Assembly (NCBI GenBank): GCA_045837725.1
Contig: JBEWZL010000232.1
Coordinates: 248,001-312,000 of the forward strand
DNA from: Vermamoeba vermiformis
Taxonomy: Eukaryota
Reading direction: 5' to 3'
Length of the DNA stretch: 64,000 nucleotides
Shown: one piece after another, positions 7,935 through 48,425 of the stretch
Numbering within the stretch: position 1 is the first letter of the stretch
How the letters are laid out: the number at the start of each line of letters is the position of its first letter
Program-made: the position numbers and the translations under genes
The notes under the pieces: generated by a model
Databases searched by the model: none
What the model saw: only the letters and a program-made list of their open reading frames with translations
What the model was told of the DNA's origin: nothing

Positions 7935-10900
7935 TTATTTAGTTTTCAATTTCTTGCGAATGCTGTTGCGCACACTGATCGTGGACTTCTTTCTCTTCTT
8001 GCTGTTGGGCTCTGTCTCTCCAGCCAACAAATCTCCGCCAAACTTGAGGCGCTCCTTCTCATCGCGCTTTTCAATACGACGTGTGAGCTCATTTTGAATG
8101 GCGTCCAAGAGCTCAGCTTGAATCTTGTACGAGGTGATGTGCTCGGTGTCTGGTGTGATGTACTTGAGGTAGTCGCGCGTCACATCCACCGTGTAGCCGT
8201 GCTCGGTCAAGAAGCTGCGTCGCTTGGCTGCGTAATCAATCTCCTCCGTGTTGGCCGTCACCAGCGAGTAGAAGTAGGCGCGGATCTTGCGCTCTTGAGG
8301 ACGCTGCACACGACCAATGCGCTGTCCCTCTTGCATGCGCGATCCGTCCATGAGTGCCACTTGAATGACCACATCAGCCTCAGGCAAGTCAATCGAGTGA
8401 TCGCCCACACGCGAGAACAGCACGCAGTCCCCGCCCTTGGTGGTGCGGAAGTTCTCCAAGATCTTCTGTCGCTCTTCGTTGGGTGTGTCACCGTCAATCT
8501 TGGGCTTGCGCAACATGTGCGTGTACCACTCGAGACCGAACAAGTTGTCGCAGAACACCATGATCTTGTGATTCTTCTCCAAGTGCTGCTTGATCAGGGT
8601 GTGACACACGCGCGTCTTGTTCGGATTGGTCGCGTACATGAGTCGCTTCTCTTCCAGGCCACTCGCGGAATAATAGGCCTGATTGAACTCGGGTGTGAGG
8701 GGCACGTGCATCTCCAAGCACTGCACGTAGGCGATGTGACCGCGCATGCGCAGCGTGAAGATGTCGAGCTCAAAGATCTTGGGTCCCACCAAATAAGGCA
8801 AGTCCGAGATGAGCGTGTCCTCGCGCACCATGGTGGCAGTGAGTCCGAGCTTGACGTGACAGCGGATCGAGTTGGTCACTTGACGGATGTTGTTCGCAGG
8901 GGCCAAGTGCACCTCGTCCAAGATGAGCAGACCCCACTCGCGCGTCTTGCACTTGGCGATCATATTCAGCGCACTCTCGGAACGGCGCGAGGAGGTGTTG
9001 AACATGCCGTAGGTGGTGATGATGATCGGTGCGCGTGGATTCCACTCGTGACTGTAATCGGAGGTGAATCGACTCACGTGCTTGTCGCTGGGCAGGGTGG
9101 TCCAGCGCAGATACTGCTCCTTCCACTGATTCACACTCAGAATGGACTGGCAGAAGATGATCGTCGGCTTCTTGAGGGCCGCGGTGACGGTGATGCCGAC
9201 CAGTGTCTTGCCCGCACCGCACGGCAGCACCAGCACACCCGAGTGACAGCCCAAGCGACCAGTGGGCACCAAGGGCACATCGGAGCTATTTTTAGCCTCG
9301 CCGTCAGTGTCGAGTGAGCCCGCACGACTGGACATGATGGGCCAGAACAGCTTGAAGCCCGAGATGGTCTGATAGTCGCGCACGCGTGTGGTGCGTTTGA
9401 GATCGATGCTGATGTTCTCGCCCGTGTGCGTGGCAAAGTCGAACTCGTCCACCACGGGATAGCCGAACTGCGCGCAGAACTTCTTGATCTGCTCGGGCTG
9501 ATGCTCGTGCACTTCAAAGCTGTAGTGCAGTTCATTGCCGTTGAGGGTGAGCTGGTAGATCTGCTCGGGCTGGATGACGAGGGCGCGGATGGGCGGGTGC
9601 GACAAGAGGTGCAGCAAGACCTGCTTGTCCGTGCTCTGAATGTAGTACTTGTTGTCGCGCAGCACCATCACTGCCTTGTAGTAGTGTATGTACTCCTCCT
9701 CGCGCAGAATCAGCTGCAGCATGTTGGAGGGCATGGGATTCTGCGCCAGCACGCGGAACAAGCGAATGATCTGCTGCGCGCGATAGCCCTTCTTGTAGGC
9801 CACGTACAGACTGTGGCGCGTCATCACGTACTTGAAGGCCTTGATCGAGACTATCGTGTCAAAGTCCGCGACTGCATCCAAGAGCTCTTTGGCGAGTTGA
9901 AAGCCGCGCTGCAGCGTGAATTCATTGAGCTCGGTGATGCACTGCAGATATATGTCGCACTCCACACCGAACAGAATCGGCTGCGGATTGAAGGGTGTCT
10001 TGATCTCGTCCTCCTCCACCGTGATCTCTTCGGTGGCACTGCGCGACAGCACCGTCGTGTTCGCGCTGCTATTATTAGCACTGCCCGCACTCAGCACTGC
10101 ACCGGGCTCAATCAGCAGACTGGGCTTCTTGTTCGGCTTGGTGGCACCAGTGCGCGCAGGGCCAGTGCCAGCACGTGACAGCGGTTGTTTGCGCGTCTTG
10201 TCGTCCGCACTCGTGGCCTGGCTCGGCTCGGGCACGGGGGTCGCGCTCTGTGTTTGCAACAATTCGTTCAGCTGTTCGCGCAACGGCTGCAACTCTTTGT
10301 CCACCAGGGCCAGCAGTCGCTTGGTGTTTTCTATTTTCAGCGTGTTGTCCACGTGCTCCAATGCACTCTTGCAATATTTGCAGGCATAGCCATTGGGATG
10401 GCGACTGTCCAGCAGAGAGTCAATGTCAATCGAGCGGAATTTGACCTGACAGGTGGGACAATAGAGGATCTGGCCCTTGAGGTCCTCGAGCTCCGTATTG
10501 AGCACGGTGGTCATCATCATCACGCGGTACCGAATCACGTCCAGTGTCTCGTCCAGATCCAGCGTCCACGTGTTGAAGGTGCGCGCACTCGCGGTCACAC
10601 CTTTCTGCTCGCACAGGGTGCGTCTGAGCAGCTGATGATTGAGCAGTCGCGTGAGTATGATGCCGATCTGCTTCGGTGTCAGCAGCAGCATCTTGCTCAG
10701 ATCTGACTCGCGGTACACTTTCTGTTCCAGGAAACAGCTCAGCAACAGCGCCACTTCGTCGTCGTAGAACCAGTGTGCCACCAGCTTGAGCAGATCCGCG
10801 ACTTTATCGAACTGTTCGGGATTGGCCTCGATGTTGTGGTACATGTACTGCTTCTTCTTCTTGTTCGGATCTGACTCGCCCTCCGCACCCTCGCCGGCAC

Positions 10901-11734
10901 TCTCTTCAATCTTGAGCACGTGATTGCTCTCCTTGCCGTCGCTCGTCACGTTGTTGAACAGCTGCACCTGTCGCGCCAGTGCCTCGAGCTGCGAGTTGTA
11001 CTTGCTGCGCTTGACACGTGTCTTGCGCGCACTCTTCTTGTCCTCGGCACGCGCACTCGACTCCACGCGATTCACGGCCAGTTGACTCGCGGGTATGCCC
11101 TTGCGCTTCAACACATTGCGCAGCTCAGACAGCTCCACGCGCTTCACATCGCCCCACACCTTCTTGAGCTCGTCGGGCAGGGTCCACATCTGAACTTCGC
11201 GCGTCTGAGGCTCGGGGAATATGACTTCGTGCTTGCTGGAACTGTGCACTATAATCAAAATCTTGTGCTGTTTGTATAGGGCCTGCACAATACGGGTTAA
11301 TAAACGAATTAAATGTTGTTATTTGACACTCAAGGGCAAATCTGAGAAAAAGAACAACTAATTCTTGAATATTTGCAAGTGACGTAATAGTGCGAGGTAC
11401 AATGCAAATATGTATTCGGAGAATTAATTACCTCAATATCGTCCTTAATAGTCACGTAGGAGGACAACACTTTGTCATCGAGCACAAGAGGTTTTTCTTC
11501 AATGTATTTTAATATATCCTCTTTGTTGTTAACAGTACTCTCAAATTTATATGAGAACTTCTTCTCCGTGGCATCGAAATTTAAATATTCATTTTTTTTG
11601 AGTAATTCCAGCAAATCAGGAGTGATCTTGACTTTGGCTTCGAGCTCTAATTCAGGGAGCGTGAACCATTTGCGACTCTTTTTGAGTACATTGACAACAA
11701 ACACTTGAGCGGTGGCATTTGATGGTTGGCTCAT
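7935..11734 (-). CDS. TFIIE-beta / TFIIE-alpha / XPB(Ssl2)-like helicase fusion protein (~1216 aa)
   Basis: Exon 1 11734-11432 (101 codons), phase-0 GT-AG intron 11431-11283, exon 2 11282-7935. Beta-like: LLKKNEYL..KKFSYKFESTVNNKEDILKYI..LPDELKKVWGDVK..VLKRKGI. Alpha-like: LLKLVAHWFY..RESDLSKMLLLTPKQI..LDVIRYRV..CPTC..CKYC. XPB-like: HSLYVAYKKG, LPCGAGKT, DEVH, LGLTATMVRED, QEGQRIGR. Confidence 0.85.
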
Positions 11735-46376: not shown

Positions 46377-46504
46377 TATTTGTGTTGATCAATGCAAGGC
46401 GGAATAACACAATAAATAAAAGTTATGATTCGTGTACCACATGTCATCAATCACGGACAAACACAGCCAAACAAGCAGCAATGTTAAAGCTCAGATTTAT
46501 TGCT

Positions 46505-46573
46505 GTTAAAGCATATCACTTGTTGTGACCTCAATGCATTGAGTTAGTCGTAAACAAGGTCATTCGCATTAAC
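46505..46573 (-). promoter_or_regulatory. SECIS element (type II) in the 3' UTR of the selenophosphate synthetase gene
   Basis: Minus strand: GTTAATGC GA ATGAC CTTGTT TAC GAC T AA CTCAATGCATTGAG GTC AC AACAAG TGAT AT GCTTTAAC. Shows helix I, AUGA/GA core, helix II, unpaired AA and an apical minihelix; AATAAA follows at 46501-46496. Confidence 0.88.
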
Positions 46574-46745: not shown

Positions 46746-48425
46746 TTAGAACTCGGTCTTGGTGTTGAGTTTGATCTTGTCGCGCGGTGGCATGACTGAA
46801 ATGATCTTCAAGTTGTCTTTGTCAATGAAAGCGTGCTCGTCCAGTGTTGTGGTCTGTCCTTCAATGACCTCGCCAATGATCCACGCAGGCTGTCCTTCGA
46901 GCTCTTCAATCTCACGACAAAATTGTTCCGCTTTGTCACGTGGCATCATCATGAGCAGTCCTCCACTCGTCTCAGCTGAAGTGCCCTCGAGCAGTCTGAA
47001 CACGTTCATCGAACTGCTCACCACGTCCATGTGAGCTATGACGGGCAGCGTGTGAATTCTGAACACGAGGTTCTTGATGTTTTGGTGGTGTGCCAAATTG
47101 CGCGAGTGACCCAACAGACCAAAGCCTGTCACATCAGTGGCACCATGAGCACCTGTGACACGTGTTAGCTGCAATTAGTAATGACAGTACGGGACACTTG
47201 CCATATTTCTTCATCAATTCAGCGGCGGTGCGATTGAGGCGAGACATCGAGAACATGGCGTATTCATACGCTTCAATCGCCTGGCGCTTGTTGGTGTATT
47301 GCTGCGCTTGTTCCCAGCGCGTTGGATTGATATTGAGCCATTGATTGACATTCACGGCCACTTGTGTGCCGATGGGCTTGGTCAACACGAGCACATCACC
47401 GACTTGACCTCCTTTGGGGCTGCAATAACATTGTTAGTGTTCGATTGTTTGATGCCGCATGTCTCGCACGTACTCGACGACATCGTTCTTGTGCGCAATG
47501 CTCGTGACCACTCCACCGATGATGGGCCAGGGATTCAGCTGACACGTGTTAGTCACCCACTCTACGCGACTCTAATAGCCACCAATCACTTACCACTGTT
47601 TGGCCACCTGTCACACTCGAGCCTGCTTCCTTGGCACAGTCTAAACAGCAATCGTCAGTGTCAAGCTGTGGTTTGGTGTGTCATACCATTGAAGCCAGCA
47701 ATAATGGCGCGTGTGACGACGAGTCGCTCGGTCTCGCTCATTTCATTCGAGGCCGCCAACAGCATCAGTATTGTGTCGCAGTTGGTGATGCCCATGGAGA
47801 ACATGTCGCTCAGCACATTGGCGCAACCAATGCGACCCATGTAATACGGATCATCGACGAGTGGATAGAAAAACTGGTTTAGGATGTTAAGGAAATGTTG
47901 ATGTAGTACGATTGAATAGCTTGGGCTATAATAAGTCGAAAGGATACATCCGTTGTCGAAATCATGAGAAGATCCGGGAAACGAGCCAGAGGCTTTACAC
48001 TACAATCCAATCCGTCTGTTTCATGTTCACCTAATCCTAATCCTTCTAATAAATGCAGCAGCTGTTTTTGGGGGACCTTACAACCTGATTGAAATTTAGA
48101 TCTATTCGCCGACGAGTACCAGTAGTCTTACCTCACCCTTTTAATTTAGTGAAGTCTGTTAATCGAAAATCGGGGCGCAAGCCTAGCTTTTGAGGTTGGA
48201 AGGCATAGCTCTAATTAAAAGAATTATTAATTACCTTACAGAATGTATCAAATACGTGCGAAAACTGGCTTTATAATTATGATAATAATCGGTTAATTTT
48301 AGATTAAGTCCCTTAATTAATTTCAGAATGTCGGAATAACAGATCCAGATCTGCATTTTTCAGTCATTTGAAATACTTACCACCTCTTCAAGAACACCCG
48401 AGGACTTATTTTCAGTGTCACTCAT
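46746..48425 (-). CDS. SEPHS2: Selenophosphate synthetase, selenocysteine-containing (SPS2/SelD type)
   Basis: [18 protein letters not shown] (TGA at 48135-48133), [70 protein letters not shown]. Confidence 0.95.
47874..47947 (-). other. U12-type (minor spliceosome) GT-AG intron
   Basis: 5' site GTATCCTTT; branch site TTTCCTTAAC at 47895-47886, ending 12 nt before the intron 3' end. Removal restores [13 protein letters not shown]. Confidence 0.85.

What the first reader, a model, noticed from the sequence alone, without database searches (positions are those of the whole stretch)
47874..47947. U12-type minor-spliceosome intron inside selenophosphate synthetase
Seen: a 74-nt intron with 5' GTATCCTTT and branch TTTCCTTAAC close to the AG, unlike the GTAAGT/GTACGT...CTAAC introns elsewhere in the window. 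Its removal is needed to restore the conserved TTDFFYP motif. Known: these are the U11/U12 recognition consensi, and the minor spliceosome is patchily retained in protists. Inference: this organism has a working minor spliceosome, and selenophosphate synthesis depends on it.
Basis: partly seen in the sequence, partly recalled or inferred. Interest (0 to 1): 0.7.

Follow-up and report, generated by a model that had tools for sequence, protein, structure and literature searches.

The report
Minor-class intron in amoeba selenium gene
A rare minor-class (U12) intron interrupts the selenium-activating enzyme gene of a common water amoeba, which turns out to carry the minor splicing machinery and over a hundred such introns, a known system in a branch of amoebae missing from the surveys checked.

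Summary
Confirmed. Window 47947-47874 (minus strand, 74 nt) is a GT-AG U12-type intron with donor GTATCCTTT and branch TTTCCTTAAC ending 12 nt before the AG. All 4 of 4 public runs laid show exactly this joint.

The host is the only selenophosphate synthetase locus found: an 8-exon SPS2 with a Sec TGA and a SECIS-like hairpin. The organism is Vermamoeba vermiformis or a close relative (Tubulinea).

The genome has U11, U12 and U6atac above Rfam cut-offs, and CENATAC, 59K and 25K domains. A paired U12 motif occurs 122 times against 11 for the control. U4atac was not found in six searches, a known gap outside opisthokonts. The odd U6atac box is the published CC variant.

A relative keeps the U12 signals. 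Two other eukaryotes have a U2-type intron at the same site, and SepSecS shows no U12 intron. So this looks like an old intron position, not a selenium-specific switch.

Known system; its presence in Tubulinea is not in the papers I searched. Side finding: one U4 gene copy carries a 70-nt GT-AG insert.

The parts
47874..47947 (-). U12-type GT-AG intron, 74 nt, phase 0, intron 3 of 7 of the SPS2 gene
   Evidence: sequence; joint in 4 of 4 runs laid
47939..47947 (-). U12 5' splice site GTATCCTTT
   Evidence: equals the consensus /RTATCCTTT given in PMC2846911; first 8 nt identical in relative L034
47886..47895 (-). U12 branch sequence TTTCCTTAAC; branch A inferred at 47887 or 47888
   Evidence: pairs with this genome's U12 at -8.4 kcal/mol, against -1.4 to -4.5 for the six other introns; TCCTTAAC kept in L034
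48381..48425 (-). SPS2 exon 1, coding part from the inferred ATG
   Evidence: joint 48210/48381 in 2 of 4 runs; open frame
48132..48210 (-). SPS2 exon 2
48133..48135 (-). in-frame TGA, codon 41, in KLKG-U-GCK: selenocysteine codon (inferred)
   Evidence: only internal stop of the 394-codon frame; also TGA in L034 and L036; an X1 contig covers it with no differing letter
47948..48084 (-). SPS2 exon 3, ends in ...ISTTD
47687..47873 (-). SPS2 exon 4, starts [10 protein letters not shown] (AIRS N-terminal domain)
   Evidence: Pfam PF00586 E 6.8e-5, 23.7 bits, just under the cut-off of 24
47594..47640 (-). SPS2 exon 5
47474..47538 (-). SPS2 exon 6
47202..47419 (-). SPS2 exon 7, followed by a 49-nt GC-AG U2-type intron (47201-47153)
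   Evidence: that joint in 3 of 4 runs
46746..47152 (-). SPS2 exon 8, coding part to the stop (AIRS_C domain)
   Evidence: Pfam PF02769 46.6 bits; homologues named selenide,water dikinase
46504..46573 (-). SECIS-like hairpin in the 3' UTR (AUGA 46563-46560, apical AA 46545-46544, GA 46517-46516, extra apical mini-stem)
   Evidence: fold z -2.13, 5 of 200 shuffles as good; AUGA core and AA kept in L034, whose contig ends inside the element; covered by contigs of X1, X3 and X16; no Rfam SECIS match; motif names recalled

Best explanation
A genuine U12-type intron, removed by the minor spliceosome, in the single Sec-containing selenophosphate synthetase (SPS2) gene of a Vermamoeba. Shown: the splice joint, the consensus sites, the snRNA and protein genes, and the genome-wide intron class. 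Inferred from established mechanism: U11 binds the donor and U12 the branch site, U6atac and U5 then catalyse, and the six flanking introns go through the major spliceosome. Because retention truncates the enzyme at codon 110, selenophosphate supply needs minor splicing (inferred). The intron most likely marks an old intron position that stayed U12-type in Vermamoeba and became U2-type in other lineages (inferred), one of 100-200 ordinary minor introns rather than a dedicated selenium switch.
For: Joint in 4 of 4 runs. Close relative's protein P0001, on short JGI contigs that encode it without a break, reads ISTTDFFFP. U11, U12 and U6atac over cut-off, with U11 5' end AAAAAGGG and U12 GUAAGGAAAA intact. 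CENATAC 102.6, PDCD7 42.5 and 25K 37.4 bits; the 25K exon matches human U11/U12-25K at E 0.0015. Paired motif 122 vs 11 and, loosened, 301 vs 110. Of the first 30 strict matches, 20 are GT and 10 AT; 28 of 30 have the matching AG or AC 8-18 nt after the branch motif. Hosts include prohibitin, a VPS9 protein, a kinase and apyrase. Relative L034 keeps donor and branch while the intron middle differs in length (81 nt) and aligns only with gaps. L035 and L036 have GTGTGC and GTGAGA donors with pyrimidine tracts at the same TTD|FF site. One SPS locus, a tRNA-Sec and SepSecS are present.
Against: No U4atac in six searches and no 48K zinc finger. U6atac has GCCGA in place of AAGGA and cannot pair with C6 and U7 of the donor in the usual register; this is the published, unexplained CC variant. 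The U11-donor duplex (-6.2) is no better than that of the GC-AG intron of the same gene (-6.2), so that energy alone does not discriminate. The intron is phase 0, while minor introns lean away from phase 0 (PMC10639083 passage). No inhibition experiment exists. The U12-to-U2 direction rests on three loci, and L035 and L036 could not be placed firmly. The runs are other strains (mostly 90-99% alike), and X1, X3 and X16 are not on record as RNA.
Confidence: 0.9

Rival explanations
1. The intron is kept U12-type because slow minor splicing serves as a control point for selenoprotein synthesis, for example retained under low selenium or stress.
For: Single SPS locus; retention gives an early stop; U12 signals kept in relative L034. 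A regulatory role for minor introns has been proposed elsewhere (abstract of PMC8767276 in the listing).
Against: SepSecS has no RTATCC donor with a branch motif on its strand within the gene. The same position is U2-type in 2 of the 3 metagenome loci found. None of the 24 listed contig pieces (9 more not shown) spans the intron. PMC10639083 argues for largely neutral retention (title and passages). Conservation in L034 is expected of any minor intron.
Confidence: 0.06
2. The intron has U12-like signals but is removed by the major spliceosome (hybrid or converting intron), the minor machinery being incomplete or vestigial.
For: U4atac and 48K not found; CC-type U6atac; GT-AG termini suit either machine.
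Against: Over a hundred paired motifs, a third of the first 30 with AT donors; intact U11 and U12 with upstream promoter-like motifs; three minor-specific protein domains; no U2-type GTRAG donor at this site. Failure to detect U4atac outside opisthokonts is common (PMC11347168 passages).
Confidence: 0.03
3. Chance motifs, wrong splice sites or an assembly artefact.
For: None found.
Against: Exact joint in 4 of 4 runs; same sites in L034; chance about 6e-8.
Confidence: 0.005

Closest known systems
U12-type (minor) spliceosomal introns, GT-AG subtype
   Same: Donor RTATCCTTT, branch UCCUUAAC close to the 3' end, no long pyrimidine tract (consensus from PMC2846911); one minor intron among major introns in one gene.
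   Different: Nothing in kind. I found no paper pairing a minor intron with selenophosphate synthetase (0 papers each).
Minor spliceosomes of Amoebozoa: Acanthamoeba castellanii, Physarum polycephalum, Protostelium aurantium, Pelomyxa schiedti
   Same: U11, U12 and U6atac present; U6atac is the CC variant reported for Acanthamoeba and Physarum; U4atac was not among the RNAs reported for those two (PMC2396436).
   Different: Vermamoeba is in Tubulinea. No tubulinean is in the amoebozoan part of the species list I saw in the supplement of PMC10639083. The motif excess here (about 110 strict, about 190 loose) is far above the 12 called for Acanthamoeba and between the 90 of Pelomyxa and the 265 of Protostelium; the methods differ, so the comparison is rough.
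Eukaryotic SPS2 (Sec-containing selenophosphate synthetase, SelD family)
   Same: AIRS and AIRS_C domains, Sec TGA at the active-site position, SECIS-like 3' hairpin; SPS2 is reported as scattered across Amoebozoa (PMC4561486 passage).
   Different: Holds a U12-type intron at TTD|FFYP; two other eukaryotic SPS genes hold a U2-type intron there.

Membership tests
U12-type intron | 5' splice site RTATCCTTT | tested here: met
   9 of 9 match; consensus from PMC2846911
U12-type intron | branch sequence UCCUUAAC a short distance from the 3' splice site | tested here: met
   TTTCCTTAAC ends 12 nt before the intron end; U12 pairing -8.4 vs -1.4 to -4.5 in six controls
U12-type intron | the predicted sites are used in transcripts | tested here: met
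   joint 47873/47948 in 4 of 4 runs
U12-type intron | intronIC / position-weight-matrix score above threshold | not testable with these tools
   intronIC and its reference matrices are not among the tools
U12-type intron | splicing fails when the minor spliceosome is inhibited | not testable with these tools
   needs an experiment
Minor spliceosome | U11, U12 and U6atac genes | tested here: met
   72.8, 69.8 and 54.8 bits vs cut-offs 39, 53 and 33; one exact U6atac core in the genome
Minor spliceosome | U4atac gene | tested here: inconclusive
   not found by Rfam at E 0.1 or 10 (only 50 of 1827 first-look candidates scored) nor by four patterns; the pattern recovered only 1 of 4 U4 copies, so sensitivity is low
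Minor spliceosome | U6atac AAGGA box that pairs with the donor | tested here: not met
   reads GCCGA; this is the known CC variant of Acanthamoeba, Physarum, oomycetes, cnidarians and moss (PMC2396436 section 16), so it does not exclude membership
Minor spliceosome | minor-specific proteins | tested here: met
   3 of 4 Pfam families searched are over cut-off: CCDC84/CENATAC, PDCD7, Ubiquitin_4/25K; zf-U11-48K not found; 65K, 35K, 31K and 20K not searched
Minor spliceosome | a population of U12 introns including AT-AC | tested here: met
   122 vs 11; 10 of the first 30 have AT donors, of which L024, L028 and L029 look like chance
SPS2 (Sec-containing selenophosphate synthetase) | AIRS + AIRS_C protein with in-frame TGA at the active-site position | tested here: met
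SPS2 (Sec-containing selenophosphate synthetase) | SECIS element in the 3' UTR | tested here: inconclusive
   AUGA/AA/GA hairpin, z -2.13, 5' half kept in L034; no Rfam match; SECISearch not available
SPS2 (Sec-containing selenophosphate synthetase) | Sec machinery in the genome | tested here: met
   tRNA-Sec with TCA anticodon, 68.1 bits; SepSecS; eEFSec, SBP2 and PSTK not searched

The most novel reading that the evidence does not exclude
This culturable amoeba splices 100-200 minor introns with a CC-type U6atac and no dedicated U4atac, one of its four divergent U4 genes (for example the insert-bearing copy next to U11) doing that job. That would be a natural hybrid tri-snRNP and a test of the proposal in PMC11347168 that U4 can replace U4atac. 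Against it: the 5' ends of all four U4 copies pair with U6 at -26.6 to -30.7 kcal/mol but with U6atac at only -14.4 to -18.8, matched by 5-13% of shuffles. A diverged or intron-split U4atac that my searches missed is far more likely.
Probability: 0.05. Interest if true: 0.75.

Novelty: new member of a known kind. Interest (0 to 1): 0.38.

Why it matters
It adds Tubulinea to Discosea and Evosea among the amoebozoan groups with a minor spliceosome (group placement of the other taxa partly recalled), with many more minor introns than reported for Acanthamoeba. That supports a minor-intron-rich amoebozoan ancestor. The SPS site is a clean case of one intron position in both classes. A culturable amoeba with a CC-type U6atac and no detectable U4atac offers a way to test two questions left open in print: how the CC variant reads the donor, and what pairs with U6atac outside opisthokonts. 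The intron itself is textbook.

Tried and rejected
U6atac box change (AAGGA to GCCGA) as a new finding: rejected, it is the published CC variant. A shifted pairing of U6atac with this donor is out of the catalytic register and was treated as chance.

U4atac: Rfam found nothing at E 0.1 and only the U4 gene at E 10. Patterns gave 0, 6 vs 15 in control, 7 vs 12 and 24 vs 11. None of the 6 loci looked like U4atac. Of the 7 loci, 6 were examined (L049 repeats the match of L048); the best by position, L046 (stem II -21.7), has no fitting K-turn, stem I or Sm site that I could see and no Rfam match. Of the 24 loci only a U4 copy had both the upstream motif and a K-turn.

U4 copies as stand-ins for U4atac: not supported by duplex energies.

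Pathway-wide U12 gating of selenium genes: none seen in SepSecS; other Sec genes not examined.

Placing L035 and L036: the 83-column tree had not converged; L035 is unplaced, and L036 groups with an unnamed protein at 88/87.

Rfam found no SECIS family. The run search listed no holder on record as RNA; the lay itself supplied the evidence. Retention levels could not be measured from contigs or from 116 reads. Two look-ups of earlier scan findings returned nothing. The metagenome pattern sees only AG-ending introns directly before FFYP, so it gives no count of SPS genes without the intron.

Full report
Observation. The stretch 47874-47947 read on the minus strand is a 74-nt intron that starts GTATCCTTT, holds TTTCCTTAAC at 47895-47886 and ends in CAG 12 nt later. 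It falls between the codons for TTD and FFYP (phase 0). Of 23 frame-keeping donor-acceptor pairs listed around it, it is the only GT-AG pair and the only one that gives TTDFFYP. If it stays in, the frame stops at codon 110. The base make-up of the gene's other introns puts the chance of both motifs in one GT intron at about 6e-8.

Transcripts. I laid 4 of the 22 listed runs. All four show the joint 47873/47948: one contig each in X1, X3 and X16, and four raw RNA reads in X20. X1, X3 and X16 are not on record as RNA, but their contigs skip the introns. All four differ from the window by some per cent, so they are other strains. The joints define eight exons and a 394-codon frame with one internal TGA at codon 41. 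The six other introns have U2-type donors, one of them GC.

The gene. Homologues are named selenide,water dikinase, and the exons match AIRS (23.7 bits, just under the cut-off) and AIRS_C. The TGA sits in KLKG-U-GCK and is also TGA in loci L034 and L036. A hairpin with AUGA, AA and GA lies at 46573-46504 (z -2.13); its 5' half is kept in L034. Rfam did not call it a SECIS, so that label rests on recalled motifs. A search with P0001 found this locus only. A tRNA-Sec and SepSecS are present. This is an SPS2.

The organism. A window protein (3-hydroxyisobutyrate dehydrogenase) is identical at 301 of 314 positions to a EukProt protein labelled Vermamoeba vermiformis, and 58% or less to the three other amoeba proteins compared. 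NCBI places that species in Tubulinea.

The machinery. U11, U12 and U6atac score 72.8, 69.8 and 54.8 bits against cut-offs of 39, 53 and 33, with none of 14 prokaryotic control genomes over the cut-off. U11 keeps its 5' AAAAAGGG and U12 its GUAAGGAAAA. U12 pairs with this branch at -8.4 kcal/mol and with the six other introns at -1.4 to -4.5; the U11-donor energy (-6.2) ties with that of the GC-AG intron and does not discriminate. CENATAC, PDCD7/59K and 25K domains pass their Pfam cut-offs; the 48K zinc finger was not found. The pattern RTATCCT-N20-80-TCCTTRAC occurs 122 times against 11 for the reversed control; a looser one 301 against 110. Of the first 30 strict matches, 20 start GT and 10 AT, and 28 have the matching AG or AC 8-18 nt behind the branch motif; L028 and L029 do not and L024 looks doubtful. 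Of 13 upstream exons scanned, two passed a Pfam cut-off (kinase, apyrase), one fell just short (VPS9), six gave weak hits and four none; one of the four matched prohibitin in the PDB.

Results against a neat picture. U6atac reads GCCGA where AAGGA is usual and is the only exact copy of its core. PMC2396436 (section 16 read whole) reports this CC variant in Acanthamoeba, Physarum, oomycetes, cnidarians and moss and calls it hard to explain. U4atac was not found in six searches, which had limited sensitivity. PMC11347168 (passages) also failed to detect it outside opisthokonts except in one oomycete, and raises replacement by U4. The four U4 copies here pair far better with U6 than with U6atac. 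The intron is phase 0, the less usual phase for minor introns.

Relatives. A metagenome scan for an AG directly before FFYP gave three loci. L034, a close relative (tree support 100/98; flanking exons 65 of 81 and 104 of 120 nt identical), has an 81-nt intron at the same site with GTATCCTT and TCCTTAAC intact and a middle that aligns only with gaps. L035 and L036 are more distant eukaryotes with 140-nt and 59-nt introns at exactly TTD|FF, but with GTGTGC and GTGAGA donors and pyrimidine tracts. So the position is shared and the class differs. PMC10639083 (passages) finds little de novo gain of minor introns outside Physarum and frequent conversion, so an ancestral U12 intron converted elsewhere is the likelier history. 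That step is inferred from three loci, two of them unplaced.

Mechanism. Shown: sites, joint, machinery genes, intron class. Inferred: removal by U11/U12 then U6atac, and so a need for minor splicing to make selenophosphate. A dedicated regulatory link is unlikely (about 0.06): SepSecS shows no U12 intron and the site is U2-type elsewhere. Removal by the major spliceosome is less likely still (about 0.03).

Novelty. Minor spliceosomes are known in Acanthamoeba and Physarum (PMC2396436), and minor introns in Protostelium (265) and Pelomyxa (90). 'Vermamoeba' with 'U12' gave 0 papers. None of the 15 listed of 494 papers held the name. It does not occur in the main text of PMC10639083, PMC11347168 or the Physarum preprint 10.1101/2020.10.12.336362 (term searches), nor in the supplement of PMC10639083. 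'U12-type intron' with 'selenophosphate synthetase' and 'SEPHS1' with 'minor intron' gave 0. These searches cover the open library only. I did not see the preprint's supplements, the supplements of PMC11347168, the FigShare tables or intron databases, which may list the species or the gene. PMC2846911, PMC4561486 and PMC5855946 were seen as passages only.

Verdict. It is a new member of a known kind, and a useful data point for Tubulinea. Interest 0.38.

Noticed in passing
L002:1939-2139 = L055:1421-1621 (G000:C102), insert at L055:1448-1517: One of four U4 snRNA gene copies carries a 70-nt insert with GTAAGC donor, CTAAT branch-like motif and CAG end in its 5' stem-loop. Removing it gives a gap-free match to the uninterrupted copy L054 over that region. 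It looks like a spliceosomal intron in U4; splicing was not shown. Introns in U1, U2, U5 and U6 genes are known in fungi; I saw no U4 case in those passages or in the listings.
   Followed up: partly
L002 (G000:C102) and L054 (G000:C56): snRNA genes come in pairs: U11 lies about 310 nt upstream of the insert-bearing U4, and U1 lies about 330 nt downstream of the uninterrupted U4.
   Followed up: no
L001, L002, L003, L054, L055, L057, 52-60 nt upstream of the snRNA starts: A shared upstream motif CCCA(C/T/A)AA precedes U6atac, U11, U12 and three of four U4 copies. It resembles the Dictyostelium upstream sequence element (recalled, not tested).
   Followed up: partly
L001:1501-1608 (G000:C146:77204-77311): U6atac is the CC variant (GCCGA), yet all strict U12 donors searched for keep C5 and C6 by construction of the pattern, and they are over a hundred. 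Among the first 30, position +8 is T in 23, A in 6 and C in 1.
   Followed up: yes
window 47153-47201 (minus): A GC-AG intron in the SPS gene, joint seen in 3 of 4 runs; relative L034 also has a GCAAG donor candidate at about the same place.
   Followed up: partly
L020-L023 (G000:C30:340290-424448) and L015-L016 (G000:C13): Paralogous genes share a U12 intron at the same position (four membrane-protein-like genes, three of them about 9 kb apart in all; two kinase-like genes), so duplication raises the count of minor introns.
   Followed up: no
G000:C102, C289, C163, C123 (L088-L093): Seven U6 matches: four of equal score (114.6 bits) on C102 and three diverged copies of 75-79 bits.
   Followed up: no
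window 7935-11318 (minus): A 1127-codon open frame whose front looks like TFIIE-alpha (zinc ribbon) and whose back looks like an XPB/Ssl2 helicase, by recalled motifs only; a possible fusion.
   Followed up: no
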